From Catajapyx aquilonaris (taxonomy: Eukaryota): DNA of 51,961 nucleotides. The translations under genes and the position numbers were made by a program. The stretch is from NCBI GenBank assembly GCA_000934665.2, contig KZ538154.1, forward strand, positions 62,001-113,961, in the 5' to 3' direction. The notes below the pieces were generated by a model, which made no database searches, was not told the origin of the DNA, and worked only from the letters and a program-made list of their open reading frames with translations. How positions within the stretch are numbered: position 1 is the first letter of the stretch; each line of letters starts with the position of its first letter. Shown one piece after another: positions 8,465 through 33,190 of this stretch.

Positions 8465-8515
8465 CAGTGGTTCCCAACCTTTTTTGAGTCGCAACCCCCA
8501 GGTTGGGGACCACTG
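8465..8515. mobile_element. Tiny hAT-like (Charlie/MER5-type ends) non-autonomous remnant
   Basis: TIRs CAGTGGTTCCCAACCT / AGGTTGGGGACCACTG; flanking 8-mers TAATATGG and TTATACGG (6/8 match) look like a decayed 8-bp TSD. Confidence 0.65.
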
Positions 8516-9803: not shown

Positions 9804-12800
9804 TCATCCGTAGCCAAAACGAGCATCCAATTCTCGATTTTCTGTCCATCTAGTATCATCTATAAATTCTATCCGCTCCTTGATCCATGATACATAGTTA
9901 GCTATACGCACAAACACAGCATGTCTTCGGTTATTACATGAAGGCAATTGCATCGTATTGTCAAACTCAGGGTCTTGTCGCATGCTAAGTATGCCTTGCA
10001 AATGCCACTTGTAGTCATATGCAGGACCAAGTTGCATCACCAGAGCAGTACCCATATCGCCATTACACGAACTTTCTCCTGAAATAAGTTAGAGATATTA
10101 GCTATTATTTGGAAGCTATTATAAATAACTTACTTTTGGGAAATAATGTGCAAAATGTGGTGGGGTCAGCCAGCTCTGGATAACTCTTCATACATTCATC
10201 GTGTGTAACTACAGGCACCTCCATCATAACAGGTTCATGTGTGAAGCTCCCATTTCCACTCAAAGCCCATCCGTATGTCTGTAAAGTTACAGGATAATTA
10301 CCGGTACAGCTAATATTGTTGAATATTATATTCTTACCATGCCCAATCTGCCTTCTCTCAGGAGAACATGGATTGAAATATTATCCAATGGCTTAGATGG
10401 GACGCAAGCTGGTCGTACAAATGGGTCCAACTTTGCTTCCTTTGCAAGACGTAGTATGGCAATATCAGCAGTGTGATTGTCAGATGAATAGTTAGGGTGG
10501 ACATATATTTTGTCAATCTGCAGATGAAAGTGTTAGACAGTTTGTGGACAGTTTTGATATAGTACATACCTCGGAAATCTGGACACTGAGATCTTCAAAC
10601 TCAGGCTCTCTGTAATGCTTCCCTAGAAGTACTTGAAAAGATTTGACAGGTATTGTCTCAGTACCGTTGAACTTCGTCACACATTGAGCAGCTGTAAGTG
10701 TAAGCCTCATTAGATATATGCTTCATGCGTATGTATAGTGTACGTACATGTGAGTACAGCATGAGCACTGATAAGTGTGGCCGAACATGCATATTCCCAG
10801 GTCTCGTTGACCAAATGATATACGCCAACATGCCACGGCCACTGTCCTCTACTTGGGACCATCCCTTCTGTTGGTATCCTCGCTGGTGGTCGACGTGTTT
10901 TTCCACAATCTACAAATCAAGTTTTGTAGTTACGTTCGACCGTGTTCGACCTTCGTATATTCTTACCTGGTATGCATGCAAACGAGTCGTTTCCACTCCA
11001 TGATCCGTCTTCATTGCATTGTCTGAGTAGACTAGGCAATAGGTGGTTACGAGGCACAAAATGAGGTCCGCATCTGTAACTGACCCCAGTTCCTACTATT
11101 TGTGGACTGTCGCATTCGCTGACCTCTAAAGTTTTGGCAGACAAACACTTCAACTTGACCCCTGTAGATGGAGTCAGTGCGTGACAGTTGACGGTCACCT
11201 GGACTCTTATAAGGGCCATAGGACGAAGTGATACCTGTTCTTCTTCAGTGCCTTCAGCTGAAAATATTTGTTTGTTACTGTTACTGTTACTGATTTCATG
11301 ATGAAGATTAACACACCTCTGTCGACTATCTTGATTATCCAATCAGCGTATTTTCCCACCCTGGTAAAGAAGCTGAACTGTGTACTATCACAGGTGATGC
11401 CATCTGAAGTTGGGATACCGACACTGACAATGCCTTGGATGAACCATCGTTTGTCAGTGTCTGAACCAAAAGCGAAGACTAGTCCTCCACCACTATCGCC
11501 GTTACAGACGTTGGTGGCTGTGAATCAGAAACCATCATTTCCGTGTTCTCTCGAGGTTATTTTTAACACTTACAATTTTCACCTACTGCACAGAGGGTAG
11601 TGTAACGCACTTGGGATCTGAAGGCCACTTGTAATTTTTCCATGCAGGTTTGAGGTGATACCACGGTCAACTCTGCCATTCTTAGCTCTCGTGATAGTTC
11701 TTCAGAACCATCTCGACCCCAACCTACCACCTAGGAGAATTTAGAATTGTCTTATTTTTTCTGCAGAACAATCTACAGGTCATTACGTCAGTTCAGTGCA
11801 ATTCCCATATGCACAGCTATGTCGTGACTTTCCTCAAGTAGACAGTGCACCACAGATTTGTTTATAGTTTTCGTTTGGATGACGATGATAATTAGGAGTG
11901 TATTCTGAGTCATCATTTACAGTGAGTATCCTGGGAAAGTCGTGAAATTTCACACGCTTAATTTTTTTTATACTACAGAGGCTGCATCCTCTAAGAAATT
12001 TCATACCATGAGTCATGAGTTCTATCAGGTGCACATAATGATTTAAAGAGATGCAATTCCCATATATGCGGACTCACCTTTCCTCTATTGCCAGGTCTGA
12101 GCATGATCTCTTCCTGTAGAGTGTTCAGGTCACGAATGTAACACACGGGTCTGACAGCATGGTTCAATTCTACTGGAGAATCCAGGATAATTACTGCCAG
12201 ATCTGAGTCATAATTGGCTGGATTGTAATTCGGATGTACATGTATACTGCGTATCTGCAACAATGTATTTATGATCAGATTGTTCTTTAAAAATATGTGG
12301 GTTCACGTACATGTTTAGTCTGAACCAAGGCCTCTTCTTCGTAGTAGTCACGAAAATATTTCCCAACTACAGCTCTGACGTTACCAACCGCCTGAGGTTC
12401 TGATGAGTCTATGTCCTTAGTTATGCAATGGGCGGCTATGAAAAAAAAAACCATTTTTAGTTAGATCCTGAAAAAAGCAATGTTATCGAAACTGCTTACC
12501 GGTGATGATGGCGTTTTCGCTAATGAGAGATCCTCCACAATTGTACACGAACTTGCCTCCGGTCTTCAAGTATAAGCCGGCATGCCAGGGCCACTGACCC
12601 AGGTTGGTGGGTTTGCCGTTGGTCACGAACGGGGTCAAAGGAAGGTCAGACTTGCCACATTCTGAGACGTAGGGATTAATTAGTGAATCGATAATTAAAT
12701 ATTTGCAGGGTGTTTAAATCGGCCCAAACTTCCACTGCAACGGTCATAACCGTCATAACGGTCCTAACGGTCATAACGGCCATACCCAAACGGCCAAACT

Positions 12801-15800
12801 TCTAAGCAATCGGATGATGTAAATTTTCAACCACTTTTAAAATTCCGGATACACGTGGCGGTAAATTATTACCGTGCCATTCTTTGTCATACTACTTTAC
12901 GTAACACCCTGGATAATTAGCGGCCGCCTACGTCAACTCCCCATATTTTCACTCAAATTGATGCGGTACTACCAACGTTTATTACCATCCGCAATTGCCT
13001 ATTGACCTTCAAAGACCAGCATTAAAATTAGCCCAACCCTAATGACCCTCTGACCTGGAGTACACCTGTAGTCGCCCGTCACTGTCCACTTCCCATCCTT
13101 TCGGCAATGACGCACGTTGGAAGCAGCCACCGAAGAAGGGACGTAATACCGTGCACACTTCATCCGGCCCTCGGTACCGTACGGAAACCCAACAGACTCA
13201 TCACCAGCCGGGAACGCAAAGTCTTTACCTAAAGGCATCTTGTACTCTACCAGAACACCTTTTCTTGGTACCAACTGAGGGCAGTAACCAGTAGCCACCC
13301 TGCTGGATTCGGGTGTAGGTTTTTGATCTGTAACATTGATCACAAAACGTCACATATTGGGTGTCATATCACAGCCATGCGTAGCACCAGTCGTGACATG
13401 AATGGGAAATGAGTGTCAATTATTCCATGAAGGTCACTGCTAATTACATGCTGACGGTGACTGTAAATGCCCAGCCTCACCTATTCCTTCTTTTCAACCA
13501 AGTTATCAACAAGACAAGTAGCCTAACTACTTTTTGTTGGTCACGTCTTTTAGAATATCAACTATGGTCATGGTGTATGAACTCTTTGTGCTATTGCTAT
13601 CGAAGCGTACTAATGATGATATTATTAACTGCTTCGTGATATGAATATTCAAATATGTTTATCCTCCTGAGACCCCTGGTACGGAAACGGTTTGGGTTAG
13701 TCAGAAGGTGCTGGAAAAAACAAAGGTACAGTATACTGTACCAGGGGTCTCAGGAGGTTATGTTATGTTAGGACCTTAGCTGTTCAGGAATAGAATACCT
13801 GGAAGACAAGATGGCTCTTTATGGCTCCATTGTCCATCGTCCAAACACACCAACACTGATGTCCCAACCAGACGATGGCCATGAGTACAGGTGAACTTGA
13901 CCAAAGCATTAGGTGGGAGCAAGGAATCAGGTTCATGTCGACAAGCAGGCATGGTATAGTTGATTTCCTTGCACCCAAGAACTATCATCTGACCAAAATC
14001 AGGTGCTTGAGGGAGAGTACATTGTTTTCCAGGCAACAATGCTGGTGTTGGAGGTTGAGGAAGAGGGAATCGAACCTCCTTCTGTTTGCTGGGTTTGGTG
14101 GTTGTTGTAATGTTCTTTCGTTTTCGGGAACACAATCCTGTTGTTTCATCACTTCTATCGGCACAATGGACACGTCCGTCGCACACCAAGTCGGACGGTA
14201 TACATGCACCGTAGTCGCACTGGAAGTGTCCGGTAGGACATGTCCGATTTGAGCACAATTCGGCAGTTTCGTCCGAACCATCCACGCACTCTTCACTACC
14301 CGTGCATACTTGCCATTTGGAGATACACGCACCATACTTGCATTGGAAGGTGTCGTCTGAACACCTACAGGATACGTAGTTGGTAAATTGGAACTGGTTT
14401 TAAGGCAGGATATTTTTACCTGTTGTTGGCACAAAGCTCCGCTGTTTCATCTGAAGTGTCGTAACAGTCGATGTATGAGTCACATACTGTGCTTCGGGAT
14501 ATGCAGCCTCCGAATCGACATTGGAATTCTGTGGGTCTTTTTCCCCAAAAAATGGTAAAAATTAGTTCGTTCTAAAAATGGGAGCAATGACATTACCGGT
14601 TTTATACAGTAACTTCCTTGGAAAACCTGACCATGGTTTTTGCTCACTTCACAGCTAATGCGTACTTTTTTTTGTACATTATATTGACCTTGCAAACGTT
14701 ACATTGTTTAGTAGGGAGATGCCTATTTCAGTTGTGCAGGTTAGTTGATTTGAGTCAGGTTTTTTTCTTTAAGATTTGAGAGGGGTGTAATTTAAGACTC
14801 TGAGACAGAACAAGTTCCATTGTCTTAAGGGGGTTGCTGGCCATATTAAAAATAACCTGTTATTTTGGGGAAATACGCTTGTTCTGGACAGTATGTTCCA
14901 GATTAATCCCGTTCAGAGGAGATGGTTGACGGAGAAAGAACTGGAGTGGTAGATCTGGTTCCCATATAAAATACTAATACAATGCACGCGATGGTTCAAG
15001 GAAAAACGGGAGGCAAACTTGTGATGGGAAATGCCAGCCATTAAAGTTTGTTCTCAAAAAAAACCCAATGATCTGATCGTGATATGCCACGCCTTTTATA
15101 GGCTATATATTAGATACAAGTATCAATTTTAAGTGTCTCTAAATGTTCATTAAGGACAACAAATATCGGAATAGCTATTATATTGAAATTGTGTTAACAT
15201 CATCAGTATCAATTGTTGAAACATCCCAAATTCTTGGAATGCGTATTAATTGTTATTATTACGCATCACGTAATGTTGGCTGTTCATTTCAAGGAAATAA
15301 CATAAATTTCTTGCATAATTATTTTGGCTCCTGATGCCATTAGTTGGAGTGTTTTTTTAAAAAAATTTTCTATCATTAAGAGTACGATGAGTACTGTTAT
15401 CAACACGTGGGTAGACTAGAATAAGTGGTCATGTATGACCTTCACTACCTAGCTGTGGTCGGACATACACGAAAAAATGTGGCTCAAAATTACCCGAAAT
15501 CACTACTAATATTGGTACAAACTATGACGCAAACACAGTCGGGGATTTTATTTTGGGACCACTTATTTTGTCTACAAAATTTTTGAACACGCTACACTTG
15601 CCTATTAATTAAACAGGTCATTGCCTGTTTTTCCCCCTTCCATTTAGAGCATTTACGTCATTGAATATTTCCCCTTCATAAATTGAAAGCATTGTAGACG
15701 CGGAAGGAAAGGGCTGTTCATGAAAACCTAGTTAATGACATGAGAAAATGGGGAAGGAGATGATCAGGGTCGGACGTGTGTGGTCACCAGGGTTTTCCCA

Positions 15801-18130
15801 ATGACAAGTTCAGGCAATGCCCTCTAGTCATAATAAGGCAGTAAAATTGGAACCAGTTAGACCACACATATTTTTTTCCTATATTGCATGTAGGTGTTGT
15901 TCATAGAGTAACACTAAAATATTTTAGTCCACATAACTACAGGGTGTTAATCCTAAGCGTGTCACCAGAAAAGGCGGTGGTAGAGGGCGCAGGTGTGAGC
16001 ATTTTTCCATAAGGAACTAGGGGTCGGAAATGCTACCTCACCGAGTTACGCCCCTTTCAAGTTTACGGTGGCGGAGTGACTCGGTGAGTATGCGTTTCCG
16101 ACCCCTAGTTCCTTATGCAAAAATGCTCACACATGCGCCCTCTACCACAACCTTTTCTGGTGACACGCTTAGGATTAACACCATGTATATTTCTGACTGG
16201 GTATAGTACCTGCATGATTGCTTCTCTGAAAGAATTTGGCAGAAGGCAGGGTCTTCATCCATTCCTCCGGTACAGTCCCAGTGGCCATCGCAGACTTTGT
16301 TAGCTGGGATGCATTTGGCGAGAAACACGCAGCGAAACTCATCGCGTGCGCACATAGGAAAACCGAATATTGTCGCTGAAAAAAATGTATAAATATATAT
16401 ATAAATTTCTCAAGGAAAAACATTCGGAGTCATTAGTCCTACATGTTTGTCTAACGAGCACTGAAGCGTGGAATTCGGCGAAATCGTTCGTATTTACAAA
16501 GGTGATGATGTCATTTTAGACACTTGCATTGTCAACAAAGAAACTATTTTAGTGTATGATGGTGCAATGTGTCGATTTCTGATTAGCAACTGTTCACGAG
16601 TTGAAACTGCGTCGTAGTCTAAATGTGACATGTCTTCGCAGTAATGTACAAAGAATTCCTATACTAATCATAATTTTGAAAAATTAGATTCAGAAATGTA
16701 ATGCATAAAATGATACGTGCTTTTTATTTCCATAGGCTCTGATTTGATAGAAGGTCACATATTGTTTATTGAAATATATTGAAGACTTTGCGTGGAAACA
16801 GGTTGCTTTGATGTTTTTATGACTAAACCCGGAAAAAGTGATTAAAGGTGAATTACATAGATCAACCACTTGTTATGGCCTAAAGGTTGATCACGCAACT
16901 GGTTTTTAGGGCCTATGCATGATGGATGATTTAATCATGTTGTTGAGCACTCTATATGTCCATATAGCATCACGTACGTGCTATGCACCATATTATTAAT
17001 CACTTGCTATGCATTTACTACCGATCACAGTACCGGTTCTAGTATAAGGGAAGAATTGTAAAGATTCAGAATGCCTTACTAGAAACATGGGTCATCCGCA
17101 TAGTAAAAAAAATTGCGTGCGTCATAAATTTGCAAAATTTTCCCACGCATCGTGTTGGGTAGGATAACTCCAGAAAATTCCGGTAGATGGTTAAATCCAG
17201 GAAGAGATAGACATCATGATCGGTCTGGAATGATCCACAGAGCTGTTCACCTTGTATAGTTTCTTTCTCTACTCCAATTTATTATTGGAAGAGCAAAAAA
17301 ATCAGCCTACGTCCAAACACATTTTAAAATTCGTTGACGTCAATGTCCAGGTCATTACAAAAGGTATTTGCAAATTTTTTTTCTAGCTTCTGGATTAGCT
17401 GAGGTAGCAAGGTTAAGACGTTTTCTGTTCAGCAATATTTGTAGATGGACAAGGATGTATATAAAATAACGTTTATGCGGCATGAAGGAAAGTGAGTAAG
17501 GTCAGGGAAGAAAAGTGCGAGTCATTAGGGGGCCATATTAGGTAAGCATTTAATTACTCTAAAAGTAATGAGCAAAAACTGAATGATTTGTTGTGAGTTG
17601 GGCAATGGACAATAGTTGTAATATTATGTATCTAAACCTTCAAATGATACAATTCAAGCCTGCTGAATGCATTATATTAGCGGAACTAAAATATAATGAC
17701 TGTTGCTATGCTTTTCCAATAGGTGAATAAAAGGTAATGAGTCATGCAAATTTTCTATACATGTCTTCTTTATAATACTGCAACTTTCAAGGCTATGAAC
17801 AGTATGAAAACAGCGTAGATTCGCTTCGTAAGGTTCTGCAGAAAAATATTTGCAAAAAAAAAAAAACATCCGATAAAACAAAGAGTGTGTTGCAAGACAA
17901 ATAAACTCAAACGGATGAGATCCCAAAAAATTATGAGTTGCATCATGACAGGATGAGAAAGATCAATTAAACTCTTTAAAAATCCTTATTATATAATATC
18001 CATCCGAAGTTACGAAACAACGTGTAGGCTATTAAGATTGACGTCTTCATTAGTATGCCAACTTATGAAACACACGTCACTCACCTGTAAAATGGGCCAA
18101 AATAGCTGTGGTAAGTAATGTCTGGCCCAT
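9804..18130 (-). CDS. Modular serine protease gene A: signal peptide, 4 LDLa, 2 CCP/sushi-like, active S1A protease, CCP-like, inactive serine-protease-homolog domain
   Basis: Exon 18085-18130 ([15 protein letters not shown]) joins in frame to 16210-16375 (LDLa CARDEFRC...[13 protein letters not shown]), 14420-14536 (LDLa), 13799-14364 (2 LDLa + CCP) and 13055-13327 (CCP-like). Protease 1 exons (12661-11317) contain ECG...[32 protein letters not shown]-like exon (~10967-11257) follows, then a second protease-fold domain (~10908-9804) with TSAQC and CNGDMG. Stop TGA at 9804-9806. Confidence 0.85.
12706..12911. mobile_element. Possible MITE remnant with internal 9-bp tandem repeats, intron of gene A
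   Basis: Ends CAGGGTGTT / AACACCCTG; internal (CATAACGGT)-like repeats at ~12740-12784; no clear TSD. Confidence 0.4.
13663..13757. mobile_element. Short MITE with 20-bp TIRs (possibly piggyBac-like), intron of gene A
   Basis: CCTCCTGAGACCCCTGGTAC and its exact reverse complement GTACCAGGGGTCTCAGGAGG; TTAT on both flanks (left TTAT, right TTAT). Confidence 0.6.
15940..16185. mobile_element. Tc1/mariner-type fold-back MITE, intron of gene A
   Basis: TA|CAGGGTGTTAATCCTAAGCGTGTCACCAGAAAAGG ... CCTTTTCTGGTGACACGCTTAGGATTAACACCATG|TA; ~105-bp imperfect inverted arms; TA TSD. Confidence 0.85.
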
Positions 18131-20558: not shown

Positions 20559-20644
20559 GAGCGTTCCAGAGGCGAAAGAATATGGCTATTATTATAGAGG
20601 GAATGCACTGACTCAATAGAACATTATAAATATGGCAAATATAT

Positions 20645-20650
20645 TTTATT
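20645..20650 (-). terminator. Candidate polyadenylation signal of gene B
   Basis: AATAAA on the minus strand ~110 nt after the stop. Confidence 0.55.
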
Positions 20651-20758
20651 GCTCTTATATAATATTACAACATTTTTGTTTTTTTAAGCTTGCATAGTTT
20701 GGCACTCTCACAATATCATAGTCATAGAACATATTTGAACTTTTAGAAATAATTTTTT

Positions 20759-23700
20759 TTACTTTTTCCTGCTTTCCGCTTCAATCTTGATCAGAATCCT
20801 TACAATCCAATCTGCATATCTCCCAACACGTGTGAATAAAGCATAGTGCATATTATCACAGACCAAATTGGCTTTTGGAACTCCTAAACTCACTATTCCC
20901 TGAAGTGTCCAACTCGTAGAAGATCCTTCATGATTAGCAAAAACCATTCCGCCTCCACTGTCTCCATTACACACACTCGTACCTGCAATGGTAATGTTTT
21001 AGACATACGTTCAATGCAATTAAGTAGTGGTCGTTACCATTTCGGTATCCAGCGCAGTAAGTAGTTGATCTAGTAACAGCTTGAAAAAATTGTTTGAAGC
21101 TATCTGCACAGGTTTGTGCTGACACAACTGGCATTTCAGCCATCTTTAGTTCATCAGCTAGTTCCTCAGTTTCAAGAAAACCCCATCCAACCACCTACAA
21201 AAAAACTGGTTTTAGTACATCTCACAAGGGAAGGTCACAGGGTGATAATGACGGATCTTGATGAAATTTAACATGCTAATACAGGACAATATATGATACC
21301 CAAAAATGAAATATTTCATGCGGAGGCCCATATTTGCAAAAGTTATGACGTCTTAAAGTTAAAAAAAAACCATTTTCATTTGAGTTCATAAATGGATTAC
21401 ATTAGCGACCACATATAAGACCACATTGAAGTGTGTAATCAGTTTCTACACTTTGTCTCATCGGAAAAAAAGTCCTACATAACGGCTCTGTATCTCTTAC
21501 GGTTTAGGCCTTGATACCTGTCCACAGACGGACGGACGGACAGAGCCGTTATGTAGGACTTTTTTCCGATGAGAAAAAGTGTAGAAACTGATTACACACT
21601 TCAATGTGGTCTTATATACCACATATAATGACATTGAAGTGTGTAATCACACACTTCAATGTCATTATATGTGGTCGTTAATGTAATCTCATTATGAATG
21701 AAAATGTACTATTTTTGGAACTTTAAGACGTCCTAACTTTTGCAAATATGGGCCTCCGCACGAAATATTTCATTTTTGGGTATCATATATTGTCCTGTAT
21801 TAGCATGTTAAATTTCATCAAGATCCGTCATTATCACCCCGTGACCTTCCCTTGTCAGTATCTCACTCATTCAGCATACTTACAGTGCCAACATTGTTTT
21901 CTGCCAATTGAACATCCTCCACTAATGTTTGAAGTGATCTGGGTATGCATACAGGTCGGACAAAGTACGTGAGAGTCACATCTTCTTTGAATGTCAATAT
22001 GGCAATGTCGGAGTCGAAACTTTGAGGGTTGTAACTTGAATGGAGATAGATTGCGGAAACCTGTTAAATAGGCATTGATAAACATGGCATCAAGGTCATT
22101 TTGATGTAATTGGCATACCTCTCTGGATTGAACATTTTCGTCATTTTGTTCCATAGCTCGGTAATATTTTCCCATGTACACCTTTACGGATGATGTAATA
22201 CGAGTCGTCGTTTTTCCAGGCTCGGTCACACAATGTCCGGCTAAAAGATATTATGAAGTGTCAAATCTTATTTATATTTCACAACGTATGTTCGCAATTC
22301 AAGTCCAATATGCTAAAAACCTTCCCAGTTAAAAACTACCCCTAATGATCCCCCTGGGGCATACGTAGAGGCCTCCGTATTGATTTGCATTGCGAACATA
22401 TACGCTGTGAAATATATTCGTAATACAAATCAATACGGAGGCCTCTATGTATACCACAGGGGGATCATTAGGGGTAGTTTTTAACTGGGAAGGTTTTTAG
22501 CGTAATGTTATACCTGTAATTACTGCATTTTCCGATATCAGCGAACCACCACATATGTATTTCCATTTTCCTTCTGATTGTAAGTATAGAGCAACATGCC
22601 AAGGCCATTGTCCTCTGGTGGTAGGTTGCCCATATGTAATCAAAGGCTTCTTGGGAATATCCGATTTGCCACATTCTGTAAATGTATCAGGTTATTACAT
22701 ATGGTACACTGACCAGTACTTATAAACCACCCACCTGCCTGACATGTAAAACTTCCTGAACCTGTCCAGGTACCATCATCCTTACACGTTCGGTAATGAA
22801 CCGGAAGCTTATTAGATGGAGTGTAATAATTGTTGCAACTGTACGTAGCTTCTGTACCAGGTCTTACAGTATTTTCACAACTACTTATCTGGAACGTTGT
22901 GTTATGTACACATTCAATTTGTACTCCTTTACTAGGGTGCAGGGGAGGACATGCCATGATGGTACCACCGGTACTGGGCCTACCAGTAGGACGTGTAGGG
23001 GAACTAGTTTGAGGTCGTGTAGGTGCATTGGTGTGAGGTCGTGGTGGACCTTCAGGCTCACTGTCTGATACACAAATTGGTGTTGGTTGACTCCAGTGAC
23101 CTCCTCTTTGGCACACTGTACGATCCTGTCCATGTAGGTAGTACCCACGGTTGCACGAAAATGATACCAAAGTACCATATGGGACACGACCTCTTTGGTT
23201 GTAACAGACAGGGTTATCATGATCTTGGTCACAACCAGCAATTTCCATGTGTCCTCGTTTAGGTTTGGATGGTAGTTGGCAGCCATTTCCTTGGTTGATT
23301 TGTTCGTTGGTACCGCCTTGGTTTTCCCATCCTTGTTGGCCAGGGTTGGGTCTTCCATGGCCATTTCCAGGTTTGTCTGGACGGTGACCTGGTGGGATAG
23401 GTTTGTTTCCAGGTCGACCTCGGTTGTTTTTCTTACGCTGACCTGGAGGACCATTAGGTAGTTCATCGTCCTCTAGTTCATAACCCTTGTCGGAATATTG
23501 CCGTCGACGACGACGACGTGCTGCGTTGGGGTCGTGACATGGGGGTTCGCGGCAACGCCTGGAAAATAAAGAATATGTTAATTTGGAAAGAGTGTATGAA
23601 AACTGTAGTTTCACACACTGTGATGTCAGACATGATGATGATATGACTACCGCGGGTTGTTCACCCACATACGGTACAGTAGCCTATATAAATTAGGTCA

Positions 23701-24896
23701 TGGATATGAAGACTGGTAATAAAAGCACGATCCTTTGCAATGGGTGAAGGACACCAATACTGAGCGTTGGTTCAAGTACAGTATTCTAGTACAATATTTC
23801 AAGGCCAACGCGAATTTCACCTTTGTCCTTTTATACATACTGCGCGTAAAGAATACCTCAGTTTTTGCTAAGACGCCACAAAATTGTGTGTGCATATCAC
23901 GTAGGACCAACAAAATTGCAATATCAAGATACAAACGTCTAATAAAAAATGATGCCTGTTGTTCCCATTTAAGCAGGTAGTTTTTGTATAACTAATGGCT
24001 ATTAATGGATATCAGAAGTTATGATATTATAATTAAATCGATTTGATTATCCAATGTCTCCATCGAATTCACCCAATTTTCGCCTAAAGTTTGACAATAG
24101 GTGTCTGCTTTTATTGTTTCAACTTTACACACATTCATTTTGGAATTCATTCATTTTAAAAAGATATTTGCATACGTGTAAGGTTTTGGTGTAGGTCTGC
24201 ACAATCCTCCTTCATCAGATGCATCATCACAGTTAGCGAATCCATCACAAACTTGTTGTCGAGGTATGCAACCACCTATGTGGCACTGAAATTCATCCCC
24301 TCTGAAAAATAATGACAAAATGAATATAATTGATAATGTGAGTTATTAATAGTGTTTACCTGCAATTTTGCCGCCGGTAGTTATCACATAATGAAGGATC
24401 TTCATCACTTCTATCTGAACAGTCAGCTTGACCGTTGCACACTTCATTGTCAGTTAAACAATTGAGTCCATCACGGCATGCAAAATTGCGTGAATTACAT
24501 ATCCTGTTACCAATTACTATAGACACTGGAAAGAAAATAGCAAATGTAAAAAATATCTATTAATATGCCAATTTGCAAGAAATTATTAGAAATTAACTAA
24601 TTGAATTATTTTGGTGAATTAATTTATCAGACAATTGAATAATTTTGCCACTAGAAGTTTATCAAGATTGTAAACTCAAACTTTGGGCTAATAATTAATA
24701 AATGATATATTAATATAACTACAGTAATATATCAACATATCTATGATAGTACTGTATTTTATCGCACCAAAAGGCGCCAATTGTTTTGTAATGACGTTTT
24801 ATTTTATTTACTTGCCACCTACAAAATAAATAATTATTGGATCCTACCTGAAATGGCAAAAATAATCAGCAGCACCTGACAATAGTGGACATACAT
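20759..24896 (-). CDS. Modular serine protease gene B: signal peptide, 2 LDLa, RRRRRR site plus G/P/N/Q-rich region, CCP, T/P linker, CCP-like, active S1A protease
   Basis: Exon 24848-24896 (MYVHYCQVLLIIFAIS); LDLa exons ~24360-24525 and ~24176-24301; large exon ~22735-23558; protease exons with ECG...[34 protein letters not shown]; stop at 20759. Confidence 0.88.
21225..21854. mobile_element. Tc4/Tc5-like non-autonomous fold-back transposon, intron of gene B
   Basis: Ends CAAGGGAAGGTCAC / GTGACCTTCCCTTG; near-continuous inverted repeat over most of its length; TCA duplicated on both sides within a CTCAG (CTNAG) target. Confidence 0.85.
22274..22501. repeat. Nested palindrome / MITE-like inverted repeat, intron of gene B
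   Basis: 22312-~22387 is the reverse complement of ~22426-22501 (GCTAAAAACCTTCCCAGTTAAAAACTACCCCTAATGATCCCC); the loop is also complementary to 22274-22298. Confidence 0.8.
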
Positions 24897-26062
24897 CCTG
24901 ACCGTCCACCTCACGCACACTAACTGTCAAACCCTAATTTTTTTTGGGTGGCAAACAGGTCAGCAGCGTTGCACCAAGCCACATGAACTCGACATAGAAT
25001 GAAATGGAAAATCTGGTTACATGTGGATAATGGTATGCTCACCTCATCAAGGTCACGTGGCAATGCTGCATGTCTGCCTTTTCTTTACACAAGGTAATCC
25101 CCCACAAGTTTTCAATGCTTTCAAAGAAGGTGTAATCTGGCAACACGTTAGGTTCTCATCCGGAAGGTCAGTTTTTTCTCAACTGGATCGGGGACTTTGG
25201 TTTGACGTCAGGTTGTCAGTTCATAGAACAAAACAACTTTTTAAAAGTCATTGTTTCGCTAAGCCAAAATGTGCAGGTACAGGTAATACCGGTCAACTCC
25301 GCATTTGCCTAAACTTGATTTTTCTTACGTAAACTGTCCTCTAAAATAATGGGTCATTTTGAAAGGTACTTGTTGCTCGTTTCATGAACGTTGCATCAGT
25401 ATTGTGAAAAAAAAATCATTCAATATTATTTCCTAGAAATTTGGGATTTTTGATTGTGTAATGAAGCCCTATATATAAAGAGGTTATCTGCGTTTATTAC
25501 TATATCGTCGTCATATATTAGACATAACCAAAATTAATTTTTAAGCAAATTTGGCGGTTTAGGACAGTTCAATTTGTGATATTCATAGTCCAAAATTATT
25601 GCATGTGATGAAAAGTCGGACTATATCATGTTTTTGTACTGGTGTGAAAAAAAAGGATGTGAGGTCCAGTGCGTCTGGGATTTTCCACAATCGTCATTTG
25701 TATGGCTTACACTTCAAGCTTTTGTGTAAGGCATAATACCAGTCATAAATACCTTCCACGAATGTAAAATTTCACACAAAATATTTGAACACACATTCAG
25801 GTTACAAAAGTTCAAGGTCACCTTGCATACTTGTCATTTTGTGACACTGAGACGTAATTCCGCATTGTGTCAGGTCAGTAAATTCAATTGACATATTACG
25901 TAACATAGTACCGGCAAAATAATCGCATCGTCTACAAGTCAGCTACCATGAGAAGTGCACACGTCACAGGAAAACTGCGGTTATAGTCAACTGGAAGTGC
26001 TGTGGTTTTCAGTGTACTATAATAATTGGCGAGCTCAAACCCATGGATATTCTCTCAACACC
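24897..26062. promoter_or_regulatory. Divergent promoter region shared by genes B and C, with kappaB-like motifs
   Basis: Head-to-head start codons 1.17 kb apart; GGGATTTTCC at 25677-25686; GGGGATTACC on the minus strand at 25093-25102; TCAAGGTCA at ~25047 and ~25812; TGACGTCA at ~25203. Confidence 0.45.
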
Positions 26063-28974
26063 ATGATATTACCTGCATTTATCCTGCTGCTATGTTGTAA
26101 GTATATAGCTATAATTTGTGTGTTTTATAGCCTTTCGTGCTATTGTCTCACAGTATGAATTGCGTATTACATTATTTAACCTTGGATATAGCTACTTAAT
26201 TCATGTTTGTTTTTTAGGCAGCAGTTGGGCACGAATATTGAATCCATGTAATCCTGGCAGTTTTAAATGCTCAGGTGACCTCAGTTGCATTTCACAAGGA
26301 GCTGTCTGTGATGGTTGGTCAGACTGTCCGGATGGGTCAGATGAAGATATCATCACATGTGGGTCATTGATACGACTTAAGAGACGATCAACTGCTAAAG
26401 TGTGCAACCAAGCAAAATCACCAGCGAATGGTCAAGTGTCATACCCTGATTGTCTAAAATCGGAATATGAATTTGCTCCGATATGCATAGGCAATTCAAA
26501 TTTGGGAAAAGTGAGTGATGGATGGGAAGCTCAATTTAAATGCAAATCTGGTTTCACATTACAAGGAAGCTCTACAATCAAGTGTAACGTAGGAGTATGG
26601 AGTGATGATGAACCTACATGTGTCAAAGATGGTAAGTTAATTTTAATTAATATTTTATACATTCACTTATGCAACATATTTTCAGATTCTGGACCCAAAT
26701 CATGCACTCTTCCTACTAAACCACCCAATGGAGAGATGGAGGTGCAAGGGTGTACCCCAGATTCATATCACCCTAGTTGCCTAATGGTAAAAGGATCTGT
26801 TTTGCCTCCAAATAGTATGATCATATTTTCGTGCAATAATGGGTACAGCCTACAAGGATCTCGAATTGCCACATGCTTGAATGGCAAATGGACTCCAAAT
26901 ATTCCATCATGTGTGATTGGTAAGTTGTCACTATTTGTTGCTTTGTGAAGGTCTAACCACCTCCTTTTACAGCTGAAGCACCTCCAACCAATGCACCTCC
27001 TACCAAAGCACCTCCAACCAATGCACCTTCCAATTGCCCAAAACTCCAGCTTAATCCAAATGTGAGAGCCAAATGCAGTTTGTCCAACAATGCTGAGGTT
27101 GACTGTAATCAAGAGCTGCCTCATAGGAGTAAGGTAGTTCTGGAATGTGACCCATATTATGTTCCCAACACAGGCTTGTCTCGTATGACTTGCCAGAATG
27201 GTAGATGGACACACAGCAGCTTCTTTTGCACTGCAGGTAACATTAATAGTATAGAGTGTGACATTTCATTGCTTGATGCATTGTGCACATAATGGTGAAT
27301 TTTGTAATTGTTTGTGGACAGTAAGATTACATGGCCACCTTACAAACTATATGCGAAAACAATGCATGTTTAAAATTATTCTTGAATGTCATGCATAGGT
27401 ATGAGTGACTCTGTGCCTGAGGAAGCTGTCAAGAGCCTCCTCGATGAAATGAGGATGCTTAAAGAGGAAGTAACGATGATTGGAAAAGAAACTCGAGAGA
27501 AATTGGATGAGCTTGGAACCATGATTGAAGCAATAGCAGAACAAGTGGGGCTTTATCCATCTATTGATGTGCGTTCGGGGACTCCAAGAAAAACAGAAAA
27601 TGTCGATGATCCTAATAAAACTATTTTGCCATTATAACCTAAACAAAAGTAGTTACATTATTGTATAACGTAATTCTTATTTACATATTTATGCCAAAGA
27701 AGAAATAATTTTCAATGTTTAAGTTTACTCTCACTACTTTTAATCAAACTCGACAATGCAAACTCACGAATACTCAGTATACATATCACACATGACTAGT
27801 CATTTATGTAGTCAATTCAATAAATACGACCCACAATGCATTTTTCAAGCATATGAAATGTCAAGCTGTCTTATTTCGTTTACCTTGTCCCTGCCAACAA
27901 CATTTTCATTATATTTTGTAGAATGTGGTGTGGCCGATGTCACTCGTGAAGCATTCATAGTTCATGGTGTTCCCACCATGAGAGGACAATGGCCATGGCA
28001 TGCTGCTATCTATCAGCTCAGGAAATCTGAATGGACCTACATATGTGGTGGATCACTCATTAAAGAAAATATTGTGATCACAGGTAATAAATCATACCAC
28101 GTAATAAATTGCATTGGATTTATGTACATAATTTACAGCTGCTCACTGTGTCACTCAACCTTCCACAACTGCTATTGTTGATGATACTACTCTTAAAGTG
28201 GTACTGGGAAAGTATTCTTCCAACTACTCAGAGAAAGAAGAAGGGACACAGGAATCAAATGTCTGTAGCAGTGTAGTTATGTTCATTTTGTCAAACTTAA
28301 ACATGTGTCAACATTTTAGATTCAGACAATATTAGTACACAGCACTTACGACCCAAACCTCTTCAGTTCTGACATTGCTCTACTTGTACTGGAAATTCCT
28401 GTCACATACAGTTACTATGTGCGGCCTGTTTGTTATCCAGAAAACTCTGAAATTGATGAACAACTGTTCTTTAGCAGTAATGTAGGATGGGTAAGTTTTC
28501 TATTCACTAGGTGTACTCAGATTTAATCGTATTTATCTATGACTGTTGTATGCCTACTGATGCAGGTTGCAGGATGGGGCATAGATGAAAACAACCAAGT
28601 GTCCAAAGAACTACGGAAAGCTTCTCTTCAAACAGCTTTTGGATATAAATGCAGAGAAAAGGGATACCCAGTGTCTGATTCGACATTTTGTGCTGGAAAC
28701 ACCAATGGTAATAACTATTCATGTTGTTACAGTAGTACAGTACAATCAACTTCATCTCATTATTACAGGAACTAATGTTTGCAATGGTGACAGTGGAGGA
28801 GGTATGGTGTTCCCATATGGCAGAGGTTTGGACACCAAATGGTACCTGGTTGGTGTTGTCAGCTTTGGTGTTCGTAAAAGAGGATCACCGCATTGTGATC
28901 CAACTCATTACAGCCTTTTTACACGAGTGGGAAAATTTTCAGATTGGTTGGGATGGACCATTATTGAATTATAG
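26063..28974 (+). CDS. Modular serine protease gene C: signal peptide, LDLa, RLKRR site, 2 CCP, (APPTN) linker, CCP-like, active S1A protease
   Basis: Exons 26063-26096 (MILPAFILLLC), 26218-26631, 26686-26919, 26973-27236, 27922-28083 (ECG...AF/IVHG, WPWH), 28139-28260 (AAHC), ~28320-28489 (SSDIA), 28566-28707, 28769-28974 ([10 protein letters not shown]); all junctions in frame. Confidence 0.9.
26978..27028 (+). repeat. Coding 15-bp tandem repeat (APPTN/APPTK x3+)
   Basis: GCACCTCCAACCAAT GCACCTCCTACCAAA GCACCTCCAACCAAT GCACCT, a mucin-like linker in gene C. Confidence 0.85.
27399..27637 (+). CDS. Candidate alternative terminal exon of gene C (~79-aa helical tail replacing the protease domain)
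   Basis: Acceptor CATAG| is phase-compatible with the donor at 27236; open, protein-like frame GMSDSVPEEAVKSLLDEMRMLKEEVTMIGKETREKLDELGTMIEAIAEQVGLYPSIDVRSG...; AATAAA at ~27819. Confidence 0.6.
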
Positions 28975-29346
28975 GTTGATGCTTGAAGGCTGGATTGCTC
29001 AATGGCTGTAATGTTTTGATGGCCTATATTTTTACCAAACAATGAGTAAGAGTGAAATATGAACTATGAAAACTTTTGAGGGATATTGAAATCTTGGTCA
29101 TTGGTCATGTTGATCTCATGCTGATATGAGCAAATTCAGAGGACATATTGGTGCAATAAAGAGTCAATAAGAAACAATTAGAAATGATTTTTTATTTAAG
29201 TTGTCCTAACTAGATACTCTTCCAGAATCATGAAAGCTGCAGCCATTTTTTCCTAAAACGTATTGCTGTGGGGAGAGTATCAATGGCATGTATTAAACTA
29301 CCAACAACTGTGCATTTATATTTTATATTTAATATTGAAACATATA

Positions 29347-32300
29347 CTAACCTACTCTTCTCTTGCACCCAATTTTGGCACGTTGTCTCTTGCACTTCTT
29401 GGTACAAATTTCCTTAAATCTAAATATCCTACACCTGTGACCTGCCATTGTCCTGAAATAGATTTTTCCACATCATCATTATGTAAAATGCATGAAGAAC
29501 ATAATACTGACCTAATCTGGTCATCAAACATAACACTTCGAGCATTAGCCCATTTCCATAAAAGGCTTTTCCGCAGTTGGTGACCCACCCCGACAGGTGA
29601 CTGCCATGATGACAAAACCTTCCCTAGTATACTTAGCACATGCAACTATAATAAAAAACAGCATCTGATGATAGCAGTAGGGCTATGCTGAAATATTATG
29701 TAAAACACTTTTGATAAGACATACTTGCTGATCTGAAGTGCTGATTGTCAGGATGCTTGCTGCCATCTCATTGCAGACATATTTAGCCTGCCTCCAAGTT
29801 TTCCTCATACCAAATGAGAACCAGTAACAAGTTGGAGGATTTCCATACCAATTTTGGGGACATGCTGAGTTGTCAGAAAATGTCTTTTGACACCCAATTA
29901 TTTGTGCACGTTTTAAATTGCATGGTTTTTCTGCCACTGCTAGCTCTACTGTGCATGTTTCGTCTTCATTTGTATTGTTTCCCATATTTTTAGTGAGAAT
30001 TTTGGCACCTTAAATATGAAGTTCCATAATTACACCACCTGATTTTGTCAACAATAATTCAATATTTGTATACCTGTACTTGGCCAAACAGCAGGGGTGT
30101 GAGTGGATGCAATCATCCCTTTGATCCAATCTATATAACTGCTAACTTGAACATAAACCGAGTAGGCTTTAGGTATGCAGGTTCGGTTATGAGTATGGGC
30201 CAATCCAAAACTGACCACTCCTTCTACCTGCCACTTGCTACTTCCATCAATCCGGGTGACTAGGCCACCACCGCTGTCACCAGTACACACATTGGTGTTG
30301 TTCATGAAACCAGCACAAAATACTCCATCTGGTAAACTTCCATTGTAGTAATTCAGACATGTTGTCCAATTTTTCACGAGTAGTTTACCCTGATGCAATT
30401 CGGATGGATGTAATTCTAGCTCATTCCATCCCCAACCAACTACCTGTAATAAATAACATGATTTTTATGCTTGTAAGATTTACTAAGAATAAACTTACTG
30501 TGGCAATGATGCCTGCTCTTGGAATTATGCCCGGACTGGGTAGACACACGGGACGAACATTACTAGAAAACTTAACAGGCTTCTCCAGTACCAGAAGAGC
30601 AATATCAGCCTCCAGAGATTCATAGTCATAATGATGATGAGGAATGATTCGCTTGACTCTCACTGTCTCCACGTACTGGTCATCTTTTTCAAACTCCAAA
30701 AAGTGCTTTCCTAATGCTACCAGCAAATCTGCTGGTGGCAAAATTCTGCTCACATTCAGACCCACACAGTGACCAGCTAAAATAAAGAATGATTATGAAC
30801 TGTTTTTGCATCAGTACGACTCATGACATACCTGTCAAAACTATTTGCTGGGTGATGAGAGTACCACCACAACTAAAAACCCATGTAATGTAGTCCCTCA
30901 CGTATATTCCAACATGCCAGGGCCACTGTCCACGAAATAGTACTTTTTGTCCATTGTGGATAAAAGTAGCTCTTGTTTCATCCATACTGCCGACACCACA
31001 AATGGGTCTACACTGCAGTGGTGAGTTCCCTACCCATTGCCCTCGGTGGGTACACATTATCACACTGTCGGAAAAATCGACAGCAGGCTCCCAGAACTGA
31101 TCACAGTGAAATCGAGCAGTGGATCCAACAAAATGGGTCTGGTGACATGATATGGACCTTCCAAATCTGTCTGAACAAGCCACAAATGCTCCTGGGTCAG
31201 AATGAACAGGAAGACATGATACCGAATTGGATGGGGGATTGATATGTGTTTCTTGTCCCTTGGATTCTGTAATAGAAAATGTTTTGTAATTTTTCAAGCA
31301 GTCCAAAATAGATTGACAGTCAGACATTACCAAGTGGGAAGTTGCAAAGAAATGGAAGAGTGGAAGAACAGTCCAATGGTGTCCATTGGGAATTATTGTT
31401 AGATTGTGTCGAATCATATGTCATGCACTTCTTTGATGATGCACTGATGCCATCTTGCCAGTTGACCCAAAAAGAAACTGGACTTGAATCGGCCCATTGC
31501 CACTGACCATACCTGTGGCTTAGCCCAATCCATAACAATGGCACTATTTGATCTGCAAAGAAACATATCTCAAGGGATTGATACAAGCAGCCTCTACATA
31601 TACGGTATCTGTCATACCAAGTATAAACCTCAGCTGATGAGGATACGTGATTGAAACTAGTTCACCCCCTTGCTGCTGACACACCTCCTTGGCACCATCC
31701 CATGATGCCTTGTAATCAGATATGTAAATGCAAGCAGAACTGACAGATGTCCACCACTGTGTAGGACATGACATGCTAGCCTTTTGGCAGGCAAAATTAT
31801 ACTGATAATAGCATGGCACACTTAACAAGTCTCCTCCGTAGTCCAATGCAGCACAGTGGTAAGAAACATCATTCTTCCACCTGTGGCCAACATGGGTTTG
31901 TCCAACCCACAAACGATGATGCAGGTAGCGTGATGCTACTGTGTCATCATCAACACTTCGAATCATAGCCAAATGAGCCCTGTCATCAAGTTGACTACAT
32001 TGTTGTTCTGCATTTTGCCAGGCAGCTTCTTTTCTGGAGAAAAACCAGCATTCATTATTTTCCAAGATCCAGCTAGGTGGACAGGGACCTGTAATGAAAA
32101 AAATAGCAATGACATTCCTAGGTTCTGCCAGAACACACATACACTTACTGGAAGGCTTCTTGCAAATGAAACGCTGATATGATTGGCATGACTCGCTTTC
32201 CCATGTCAATGCATCAGAAAGTGTTATGCAGGTTTCGTTTGTATGATCTGGTTCACCCGTGACACCCCATTGCTCCATGTCCAGCTCGGATCCATCAATC

Positions 32301-33190
32301 CATCTCCAATGATCTGCACCATCAGGCATTTCAAGTCCAAGCCACACAGTCCAAAACATTTTTTCTGCAAAAATGGTGTGCTCAGTTGAAGCCTGTTTAT
32401 CATTAACGTTATTATACAATAACCTATTACCTCTTAGATATTCCTGAACTATCCAATTATGAATGCTGGCCAGTGTTGCATTTTCATGCATCCGCATACA
32501 TTTTTTCTCAGCCCTGTACCACGAAGCGGTCTCTTTGGATACATAGTAGCAGGCATCTTCAATGCGCTCCCAGGCCATAGGGCATGGATCTGCGGAATAG
32601 CATGATAAATATCATTAATTCAGTAATTAATATATTCCAAAGATCATTACTTGCGTTAACTCTGCATGCAAAGTGAAACTTGTTCTTGCACTTTTTCCGT
32701 TTCCATTTCCCACTTGAAGAAATATGCCCACACTGTTTGTTATCAATTAAGGGCATATTACCCCAAAATGAGAAGTCTTTGGGGGTCTTGTCACTCCATT
32801 GCCAATTGCCATCTTTTTGGTACAGGCCAATCCACATGTTCCAAAACATTTTACCTGTAACAGTGAGTGTAGTTGATAATGAACAAATTGATCATAACTT
32901 CATGGTGTATTTACCTTTGATAAATTTCATCTCTGCTTCTGTGTTCAAACAGAGTATATTTGACTCCGGGTCCATCCATTTACAATATTCCTGCCCTTCC
33001 TGCCAACTTCCCCTTGGGTCTGCAACATGGTAGCAGTAATCCTGAAACAACTCCCATTCTGAAGGGCATATGTCACATTTAGCAACTGAAAAAAAATCAA
33101 TTAATTATTATTGATTCCAAATACTAGTTTGTGTAACACAATATTACCTTTCAACTTCAGGAAAAGGACAAACAATAATAACGACTTCAT
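29347..33190 (-). CDS. Lectin-protease gene D: signal peptide, 4 C-type lectin domains, CCP-like, active S1A protease, C-terminal degenerate basic C-type lectin domain
   Basis: Exon 33148-33190 (MKSLLLFVLFLKLK) joins VAKCDICPSEWELFQDYCY. CTL hallmarks: WIGL, WLGL...EPD, WVGQ, WIGL. CCP-like module ends CRPICG...TF/IHNG; protease has WPWH, TAGHC, EADIA, NVCTGDSGGG. An in-frame splice leads to CPQNWYGNPPTCYWF; a predicted 59-nt last intron gives HRCRIFRFKEICTKKCKRQRAKIGCKRRVG-stop. Confidence 0.85.

What the first reader, a model, noticed from the sequence alone, without database searches (positions are those of the whole stretch)
9804..33190. Four-gene cluster that may encode a complement-lectin-pathway-like protease module (sensor, proteases, pseudo-enzyme, decoy)
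Seen: four adjacent secreted S1A protease genes share a CCP-like module-CG-protease core, similar motifs (GQWPWH, LGKY/HY, VC(N/T)GDSGGG) and, in A, B and C, the same intron positions in the protease domain, which indicates local duplication. Their N-termini differ (4, 2 or 1 LDLa, or 4 C-type lectins), as do their C-termini (dead protease, extra lectin, alternative helical tail). Known: insect ModSP/HP14 (LDLa-CCP-protease) starts the Toll and prophenoloxidase cascades and relies on separate receptors such as GNBP/PGRP; Limulus factor C combines sensor and protease; vertebrate MBL/MASP/MAp44 combines lectin, CCP-protease and decoy. Inference: this locus could be a lineage-specific haemolymph recognition or clotting cascade with those roles encoded side by side. 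I do not recognise this combination but cannot confirm it is new.
Basis: partly seen in the sequence, partly recalled or inferred. Interest (0 to 1): 0.85.

Follow-up and report, generated by a model that had tools for sequence, protein, structure and literature searches.

The report
Tandem cluster of modular immune-type proteases
Four neighbouring genes in an arthropod genome encode variants of the modular serine protease that starts insect immune cascades, one of which carries sugar-binding-type domains where the usual docking repeats would be, so this is a locally diversified known family, not a new system.

Summary
Window 9804-33190 carries four intact multi-exon S1A protease genes. A, B and C have 4, 2 and 1 LDLa repeats, then Sushi/CCP modules and a protease. 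D has four C-type lectin domains, a CCP-like module and a protease. Contigs of one public run join the exons at GT-AG borders. They show that A's live and dead protease domains lie on one transcript. They also show an alternative 3' exon in C that replaces the protease with a helical tail.

A, B and C belong to the insect ModSP/HP14 modular serine protease family.

All four live domains have Phe or Leu before the activation cut and no Asp at position 189, as in the auto-activating initiator ModSP. They therefore look like parallel initiators with different heads, not successive steps of a cascade. They are not MASP or factor C relatives.

D's lectin head found no relative in my searches. Its extra C-terminal lectin is only half recognisable. 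No tissue or induction data were available. Verdict: new variant of a known kind.

The parts
9804..16375 (-). Gene A: LDLa x4, Sushi, six-Cys CCP-like module, active protease (A1), linker, CCP-like module, dead protease (A2). The 5' leader exon is not resolved.
   Evidence: Pfam (on the 85%-identical ortholog P0050). Spliced model. One 2550-nt contig joins A1, the CCP module and A2. The LDLa1-LDLa2 junction is confirmed by tblastn of P0050.
11317..12661 (-). A1 protease exons 12500-12661, 12311-12435, 12078-12254, 11574-11730, 11317-11517. Triad H/D/S present. Predicted cut LTPF|VTNG.
9804..11257 (-). A's C-terminal unit: linker plus CCP-like exon 10967-11257, then dead protease exons 10748-10909, 10570-10691, 10338-10517, 10134-10278, 9804-10078. 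His replaced by Gln, Ser by Met; Asp kept.
   Evidence: Joint 11257/11317 and four further joints in one contig. Alignment. The same losses occur in P0050 domain 2 (Gln, Ile).
20634..24896 (-). Gene B: candidate leader (ATG 24896), LDLa x2, Pro/Gly/Arg-rich linker, Sushi, CCP-like module, protease. Cut KKPL|ITYG. 3' end at about 20634.
   Evidence: Pfam. Model. A 2164-nt contig with 5 listed joints. Leader is heuristic. AATAAA 20645-20650 on the minus strand.
26063..29175 (+). Gene C, main form: candidate leader (ATG 26063), LDLa, Sushi x2, CCP-like module, protease exons 27922-28974. Cut REAF|IVHG. 3' end at about 29175.
   Evidence: Pfam. Model. Contig piece 28768-29175. AATAAA 29155-29160.
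27399..27835 (+). Alternative terminal exon of C. It is in frame after donor 27236 and adds 79 residues (G + 78), stop at 27635-27637. The result is an LDLa-Sushi-CCP protein with a helical tail and no protease.
   Evidence: Contig piece 27397-27835 at record positions 707-1145. Frame check. AATAAA 27819-27824. AlphaFold2 helix at residues 7-49. No Pfam or Atlas match.
30048..33190 (-). Gene D: candidate leader (ATG 33190), four C-type lectin domains (exons 32915-33085, 32651-32854, 32431-32589, 32149-32364, 31618-32088, 31331-31552), CCP-like module plus protease start (30832-31266), protease exons 30499-30776 and 30048-30443. Cut RATF|IHNG. Triad present.
   Evidence: Pfam. Junctions. Open 849-aa model. 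Leader. Alignment.
29350..30008 (-). Possible 3' extension of D: lectin-like first half (29725-30008) and a degenerate second half (from 29645 downward). It is either coding after a donor at 30073 or part of a long 3' UTR.
   Evidence: Lectin profile E 6e-6 for 29686-30009, second half not significant. In-frame donor and acceptor pairs exist. The first minus-strand AATAAA after D's stop is at 29191-29196. Contig depth is present in 29544-30200, but no splice was shown.

Best explanation
The locus is a tandem cluster of four genes of the arthropod modular serine protease family (ModSP in Drosophila, HP14 in Manduca, MSP in Tenebrio). All four are built on one chassis: a six-cysteine CCP-like module, a Cys-Gly, an activation site cut after Phe or Leu, and a chymotrypsin/elastase-type S1A domain.

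What the sequence shows:
- A, B and C keep the family's LDLa plus Sushi head, with 4, 2 and 1 LDLa repeats.
- D has four C-type lectin domains where the LDLa repeats would be.
- A carries an added CCP-like module and a catalytically dead protease domain at its C-terminus.
- C makes a second mRNA that ends in a helical tail and lacks the protease.

How it most likely works (inferred):
- Each product is a secreted zymogen of the initiator tier. Its head docks it to a recognition complex or, for D, perhaps directly to a ligand. Clustering then lets it cut itself or a neighbour after Phe/Leu, as ModSP and HP14 do. The active enzyme would then switch on clip-domain proteases encoded elsewhere.
- The genes are therefore parallel inputs with different heads, not consecutive steps.
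- A's dead domain and C's protease-less form are most simply modulators that bind the same partners without cutting.

The host is probably a springtail or a close hexapod relative. This is inferred from the tree only.
For: Family.
- The nearest named relatives of A are 'modular serine protease(-like)' proteins of beetles, damselflies, crickets and wasps at 28-36% identity, with LDLa + Sushi + Trypsin.
- In the careful tree (74 rows, 257 columns), A1, B and C group with the LDLa-Sushi-Trypsin protein of Orchesella cincta (support 93/92). B is 51% identical to that protein.
- All five window domains lie in a starred clade of 60 rows (98/93) with insect ModSP and gd-type proteases. MASP-like, scorpion factor C-like and clotting-factor-B-like rows lie outside it.

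Chassis.
- A shared CCP-like module with six cysteines stands before CG in all five units.
- D's module matches the corresponding module of a ladybird ModSP-like protein (34% over 89 aa, E 5e-6).

Tier.
- P1 is F, L, F and F in A1, B, C and D. Position 189 is N, S, N and N.
- Insect ModSP rows read TPL|V/I.
- Tenebrio MSP is listed as LDL(4)+Sushi with cut site L|IVNG (PMC11172050, passages).

Transcripts.
- Contigs of run X1 join exons at CT..AC (GT-AG) borders for A and B and cover both 3' ends of C.

Conservation.
- An 85%-identical ortholog (P0050, 1040 aa) has the same 4 LDLa + Sushi + 2 Trypsin layout and the same dead second domain.
- Identity is 92% for A1 and 73% for A2.

Shared origin.
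- Five shared intron positions in A1, A2, B and C; two of them in D.
- All module borders are phase 1.
Against: - No tissue, haemolymph or induction data were available. The single run is of unrecorded kind and source.
- Gd-type developmental proteases score as high as or higher than ModSPs against the profile of the window's domains (295 against 240-286 bits). The protease domain alone therefore does not say 'immune'.
- D and A2 are long, unresolved branches. D's best identity to anything is 39% over the whole domain and at most 48% over its last exon.
- D's lectin domains mostly lack the canonical EPN/QPD and WND calcium-sugar motifs. Only the second has EPD. This was read by eye.
- Leaders are a hydrophobicity heuristic only, and A's 5' end is unresolved.
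- No recognition protein or clip protease lies in the window.
- That record 4 joins the alternative exon to C's upstream exons is inferred, because its other pieces were not listed.
Confidence: 0.7

Rival explanations
1. The four genes form one integrated, lectin-pathway-like module. D senses carbohydrate and activates A, B and C (or the reverse) in a local cascade. A's dead domain acts as a cofactor and C's short form as a MAp44-like decoy.
For: - Every zymogen has a Phe/Leu cut site that matches the specificity predicted for its neighbours, so cross-activation is chemically possible.
- The protease-less isoform of C is real at the transcript level.
- Contigs covering A, B and C and the 3' region of D occur in the same run.
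- B and C lie head to head, about 1.2 kb apart.
Against: - All four domains look like the same tier.
- Known ModSP cascades proceed to clip proteases, which are absent here.
- There is no kinship with MASP or factor C.
- D's lectin domains are mostly non-canonical.
- Depth in contigs cannot show co-regulation.
Confidence: 0.2
2. The genes have non-immune roles. Examples are embryonic axis or eggshell signalling (as for gastrulation defective and nudel), moulting, or extracellular matrix processing.
For: - Gd-type proteases are the best-scoring outside domains against the locus profile and share the TPL|VTNG..GQWPWH motifs.
- Tenebrio MSP-like and Sushi-bearing polypeptidases are reported as expressed through all or most life stages (PMC11172050, passages).
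Against: - No GD_N domain was found in any exon.
- The LDLa + Sushi head is the ModSP head.
- A1, B and C sit with LDLa-Sushi proteases and not inside the gd group.
Confidence: 0.15
3. D is a young chimeric gene of little or no function, and the lectin-like piece downstream of it is a decayed relic of a former exon or gene.
For: - No relative above 48% identity to D's last protease exon among 1.84 billion representatives, although A has an 85% ortholog there.
- The second half of the downstream lectin is not recognisable.
- Word searches with two D exons found no ortholog.
Against: - D is open across nine coding exons from the first lectin exon to the stop, with intact triad, cysteines and splice sites.
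- Contig depth is present over its 3' region.
- The ortholog of A comes from a transcript assembly, in which a weakly expressed D could simply be missing.
Confidence: 0.1

Closest known systems
Insect modular serine proteases: Drosophila ModSP, Manduca HP14, Tenebrio MSP, Helicoverpa SP41-43
   Same: - LDLa repeats, Sushi and a Cys-rich module before a clip-less S1A domain.
- Cut after Leu/Phe and no Asp189.
- Several paralogs per genome are known, for example three in H. armigera (PMC7215089, passages).
- A, B and C fall with these proteins in the name look-ups and in the tree.
   Different: - Here three such genes and a lectin-headed one lie side by side.
- LDLa number drops to 2 and 1.
- A has an added dead domain.
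- C has a protease-less isoform.
- Identity to named insect ModSPs is only 28-36%.
Tenebrio molitor 'polypeptidases' Sushi(2)-SP-Sushi(2)-SPH and human polyserases
   Same: - An active chymotrypsin-like domain is followed by Sushi and a dead homolog on one chain, with Leu-type cut sites.
- The SPH has been proposed to act as a dominant-negative binder (PMC11172050, passages).
   Different: - A also carries four LDLa repeats, has one CCP-like module between the domains where the beetle proteins have two Sushi domains, and its dead domain has no Leu/Phe cut site (PARI|PTEG).
- Kinship of A2 with the beetle SPH domains was not tested.
Limulus factor C
   Same: A lectin domain, CCP modules and a protease on one chain, so that sensor and initiator are one molecule. 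This is the function proposed for D.
   Different: - D has no EGF or LCCL domain and no Asp189. The scorpion factor C-like rows have Asp there.
- Joining D with those rows is rejected (p-AU 0.013).
- Authentic Limulus factor C was not available to me.
Vertebrate MASP-1/2 with MAp44/MAp19 (architecture and splice forms recalled, not from a call)
   Same: CCP modules precede the protease. One gene gives a full protease and, by an alternative terminal exon, a protease-less protein, as C does.
   Different: - No CUB or EGF domain.
- MASP-like CUB-EGF-CUB-Sushi-Trypsin proteins lie outside the clade.
- MASPs in the PDB are no closer to D than elastase or chymotrypsin.
Mosquito CLSP1-3 (CTLD-SP proteins)
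   Same: A protease domain is followed by a C-terminal C-type lectin domain (PMC6070988, passages). D would have this order if its downstream lectin piece is coding.
   Different: - CLSPs have no N-terminal lectins or CCP module.
- An Anopheles SP-lectin protein (P0010) sits in another part of the tree.
- D's C-terminal lectin is degenerate and its splicing is unverified.
Gastrulation defective (gd) proteases
   Same: The protease domain and the motifs around the cut site are as similar as those of ModSPs.
   Different: The GD_N domain is absent here. LDLa, Sushi or lectin heads are present in its place.

Membership tests
ModSP/HP14 modular serine proteases | N-terminal LDLa repeats | tested here: met
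   A has 4, B has 2, C has 1 (Pfam; tblastn). D has none, so this feature is not met for D.
ModSP/HP14 modular serine proteases | Sushi/CCP plus a further Cys-rich module directly before the protease, and no clip domain | tested here: met
   Sushi hits in A-D (for D weak, E 0.005, below the gathering score) and no CLIP hit. A six-Cys module stands before CG in all five units. Equating it with the 'Wonton' domain named in PMC7215089 is my inference.
ModSP/HP14 modular serine proteases | Chymoelastase-type domain: activation after Leu-like P1, no Asp189, intact triad | tested here: met
   P1 is F/L/F/F and position 189 is N/S/N/N. H, D and S are present in A1, B, C and D. Reference values come from PMC10732536 and PMC11172050.
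ModSP/HP14 modular serine proteases | Protease domain groups with ModSPs in a tree | tested here: inconclusive
   A1, B and C group with the Orchesella LDLa-Sushi protease at 93/92. They are next to, but not inside, the starred insect ModSP clade, and the gd group is equally near. D and A2 are unresolved. Authentic ModSP, HP14 and MSP sequences were not in the set.
ModSP/HP14 modular serine proteases | Auto-activation on a recognition complex and activation of a clip protease | not testable with these tools
   Needs recombinant proteins.
MASP/C1r/C1s | CUB-EGF-CUB head before CCP-CCP-protease | tested here: not met
   No CUB or EGF hit in any exon. Two CUB-EGF-CUB-Sushi-Trypsin proteins lie outside the 60-row clade.
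Limulus factor C | EGF, LCCL, lectin and five CCP modules with a trypsin-type (Asp189) domain; protease groups with factor C | tested here: not met
   Only lectin and one CCP-like module are present, and position 189 is Asn. D joined with scorpion 'factor C-like' rows is rejected, log-likelihood difference 18.2, p-AU 0.013. The architecture of factor C is recalled.
Polyserase-like SP-SPH proteins | Active and dead S1A domains on one polypeptide | tested here: met
   One contig spans both domains of A. The open frame runs across joint 11257/11317. Gln replaces His and Met replaces Ser.
C-type lectin (carbohydrate-binding) domains | EPN/QPD and WND calcium-sugar motifs | tested here: inconclusive
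   Lectin_C hits are clear. By eye, only domain 2 has EPD, with WES in place of WND, and the others lack the motifs. Ligand unknown.

The most novel reading that the evidence does not exclude
On the ModSP chassis, a basal hexapod lineage has independently assembled the logic of the vertebrate lectin pathway at one locus.
- D would be a single-chain lectin sensor and initiator protease, a functional analogue of MBL plus MASP or of factor C.
- C's alternative mRNA would give a MAp44-like decoy that competes for the docking partner.
- A's fused dead domain would tune activation in cis.
- The shared Phe/Leu cut sites would let the paralogs trans-activate one another on a microbial surface.
Probability: 0.2. 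Interest if true: 0.8.

Novelty: new variant of a known kind. Interest (0 to 1): 0.5.

Why it matters
ModSP-type proteases are the entry point of the Toll and prophenoloxidase cascades. As far as is known, they depend on separate recognition proteins that bind their LDLa repeats.

A paralog whose LDLa head has been exchanged for four lectin domains would be a natural test of whether the head alone decides what triggers the cascade. It would also be a case of convergence with factor C and with MBL-MASP.

The protease-less isoform and the fused dead domain point to built-in dampers, and little is known about such dampers for this tier. The locus also extends the family outside insects proper. 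If the function turns out to be ordinary, this is a tidy example of exon shuffling in phase-1 modules within a tandem array.

Tried and rejected
- No whole genome is held for this window, so synteny and paralogs elsewhere could not be checked.
- The look-up of sequencing runs: no RNA holder listed. One run of unrecorded kind was found and laid.
- Read laying showed 15 of 33 joints and 8 of 83 pieces. Joints of C and D, and the upstream part of the alternative-tail contig, were therefore not seen.
- Word search with D's last protease exon: 27 hits among 276 candidates, best 40% identity, mostly mosquito clip proteases. No ortholog.
- Word search with D's CCP + protease-start exon: 25 candidates, none significant.
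- HMMER search of 1.84 billion representatives with D's last exon: 5274 hits at E up to 0.001. The ranking is dominated by multi-protease proteins. No per-domain identity exceeds 48%.
- Two attempts to build a family profile from separate exons (alignments A1 and A2) were misaligned by MAFFT and dropped.
- PDB sequence search: generic S1A matches only.
- ESM Atlas on C's alternative tail: best score 0.77, bacterial hypotheticals, no lead.
- Earlier-findings look-ups by place, words and sequence: nothing.
- Literature searches returned no paper describing a lectin-CCP-ModSP-type protease or ModSP genes in springtails. These were word searches of an open-access subset, and I read passages of only four papers.
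- I considered that P0039 (Carabus 'modular serine protease', 2 LDLa, 2 Trypsin) shows the same SP-SPH layout as A. Both of its domains look active and are each other's nearest relatives, so it is a different case or a fused gene model.
Full report
Setting. The window is animal DNA with about 40% G+C and many introns of 52-65 nt. PRPF8 lies on the plus strand at about 500-8000. An ABCC-type transporter and a MutS-like gene lie on the minus strand beyond 36600. No whole genome is held for the window.

What is there. Exon-by-exon Pfam scans and splice-site modelling give four genes with open spliced frames.
- Gene A (minus strand, 9804 to about 16375): four LDLa repeats, a Sushi domain, a second CCP-like module, an active S1A domain (A1), a short acidic linker, a third CCP-like module and a second S1A domain (A2). 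In A2 the catalytic His is Gln and the Ser is Met.
- Gene B (minus, 20759-24896): two LDLa repeats, a Pro/Gly/Arg-rich linker, Sushi, a CCP-like module and a protease.
- Gene C (plus, 26063-28974): one LDLa, two Sushi domains, a CCP-like module and a protease.
- Gene D (minus, 30048-33190): four C-type lectin domains, a CCP-like module and a protease.
A profile of the locus's protease domains and a profile of D's lectin domains, run over all 1331 six-frame ORFs of the window, find no further copies except one lectin half downstream of D.

Transcript evidence. The run search listed one run, X1, whose kind is not on record. Laid on 10201-30200, its contigs skip introns with CT..AC ends. On the minus strand these are GT..AG borders, which is what cDNA looks like.
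- Fifteen of 33 joints were listed. All 15 agree with the predicted sites.
- One 2550-nt contig runs from A1 through joint 11257/11317 into the CCP-like module and A2. The live and dead domains are therefore on one mRNA.
- A 2164-nt contig covers B down to 20634, just past an AATAAA.
- For C, one contig piece ends at 29175 after the AATAAA at 29155.
- Another piece covers 27397-27835 without a gap. It begins at an AG acceptor that is in frame with donor 27236, and it ends 11 nt after an AATAAA.
- This alternative exon replaces the protease with 79 residues. Their core is predicted as one long helix (residues 7-49, mean pLDDT 73.8, single sequence).
- I did not see the upstream pieces of that contig, so its link to C's earlier exons is inferred.

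Relatedness within the locus.
- A1, A2, B and C share five introns at identical alignment columns and phases. D shares two of them.
- All borders between modules are phase 1, the classic arrangement for exon shuffling.
- The module before each protease has the same six-cysteine pattern and ends in CG.
- Domain identities are 42-47% among A1, B and C, 33-37% for D, and 28-35% for A2.

Relatives elsewhere.
- A HMMER scan of 1.84 billion representatives with D's last exon gave 5274 hits at E up to 0.001, none above 48% identity.
- Among the stored hits, P0050 (1040 aa, unnamed transcript assembly) is 84.7% identical to A over 945 residues. It has 4 LDLa, Sushi and 2 Trypsin domains, and its second domain is also dead, with Gln and Ile.
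- A1 is 92% identical to its counterpart and A2 73%. The dead domain is therefore older than the split of the two species and is kept, though it evolves faster.
- Named relatives of A are 'modular serine protease(-like)' proteins of insects. Others are an Orchesella cincta protein with LDLa + Sushi + Trypsin that carries the automatic name 'Limulus clotting factor C', and scorpion 'factor C-like' proteins with Sushi + Trypsin.

Tree. I built a careful maximum-likelihood tree of 74 protease domains over 257 columns. The rows were chosen by me from 409 domains: the best scorers plus named outgroups.
- A starred clade of 60 rows (98/93) holds all five window domains, the insect ModSPs (96/84) and a group with gd-type and some other proteases (92/94).
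- A1, C, B and the Orchesella protein form a group at 93/92.
- D and A2 branch separately and are unresolved.
- Scorpion factor C-like rows, MASP-like CUB-EGF-CUB-Sushi proteases and a clip/clotting-factor-B-like group lie outside.
- Holding all local domains plus the Orchesella protein together costs 1.1 log-likelihood units (p-AU 0.45). A single local origin is therefore neither shown nor rejected.
- Holding D with the factor C-like rows costs 18.2 units (p-AU 0.013).

What the motifs mean. GQWPWH, the CG, and (T/S)[10 protein letters not shown] also occur in insect ModSP and gd rows, so they mark the wider family. The informative features are these:
- Every live domain here is cut after Phe or Leu: [32 protein letters not shown].
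- Position 189 is Asn or Ser, not Asp.
- By eye, position 216 is Gly and 226 is Ser or Ala.
Passages of PMC10732536 describe ModSP as chymoelastase-like with a preference for P1 Leu, auto-activating with PGRP-SA, GNBP1 and peptidoglycan, and then activating a clip protease. Tables in PMC11172050 list Tenebrio MSP as LDL(4)+Sushi with cut site L|IVNG. Passages of PMC7215089 say the LDLa domains of HP14 bind the glucan-recognition protein. All four genes therefore carry the signature of the first, self-starting tier.

Most likely mechanism. The genes encode parallel initiator zymogens on one chassis with different heads.
- LDLa heads of different length would dock A, B and C to recognition complexes.
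- D's lectin head might bind a ligand directly.
- Clustering would trigger cutting after Phe/Leu, in cis or between neighbours. The downstream clip proteases are encoded elsewhere.
- A's dead domain resembles the Sushi-SP-Sushi-SPH 'polypeptidases' of Tenebrio, for which a dominant-negative binding role has been proposed (PMC11172050).
- C's short form would compete for docking without cutting, in the manner recalled for MAp44.
All of these steps are inference. None was tested.

Caveats.
- The protease domain is as close to developmental gd proteases as to ModSPs: 295 against 240-286 bits versus the locus profile.
- D's lectin domains mostly lack the calcium-sugar motifs (by eye).
- The 'extra lectin' after D is recognisable only in its first half (E 6e-6), and its splicing was not seen. 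The first minus-strand AATAAA after D's stop lies at 29191-29196, so the piece is probably within D's transcript, as coding sequence or as UTR.
- Leaders of B, C and D are heuristic, and A's is unresolved.
- There are no data on tissue or induction.

Verdict. The parts are known kinds: ModSP paralogs, SP-SPH chains and SP-lectin fusions. The lectin-headed ModSP-type protease, the protease-less isoform and their side-by-side arrangement were not found in my searches (literature). I class the locus as a new variant of a known kind, of moderate interest.

Noticed in passing
window 15938-16052 and 16073-16187: A 115-nt inverted repeat, 90% complementary with a 20-nt loop, lies inside A's 1.7-kb intron between the LDLa1 and LDLa2 exons. 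It looks like a miniature transposon. Contigs of run X1 with depth 36-48 and loose ends map there, so copies elsewhere are probably transcribed.
   Followed up: partly
window 22306-22401 and 22412-22507: A 96-nt inverted repeat, 92% complementary with a 10-nt loop, fills most of B's 273-nt intron. This explains the mirror-image ORFs on both strands.
   Followed up: partly
window 21781-21810: A short stretch in B's 689-nt intron is covered by a contig of depth about 820 with several differing letters. It is presumably a highly expressed or highly repeated element related to this site.
   Followed up: no
window 24896-26063: B and C are head to head, and their candidate start codons are about 1.2 kb apart. 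A shared bidirectional control region is possible.
   Followed up: no
window 1-8500, 36600-43000, 46000-51300: Flanking genes, identified from the translated ORFs by eye without a family scan. PRPF8 is on the plus strand. An ABCC-type transporter and a MutS-family gene (with an ATPase motif) are on the minus strand.
   Followed up: partly
proteins P0116, P0061, P0039 (other insects): Several insect database entries hold two to four complete LDLa-(Sushi)-protease units in one predicted protein. Tandem ModSP arrays, or gene models that fuse them, therefore seem common in beetles and butterflies.
   Followed up: partly
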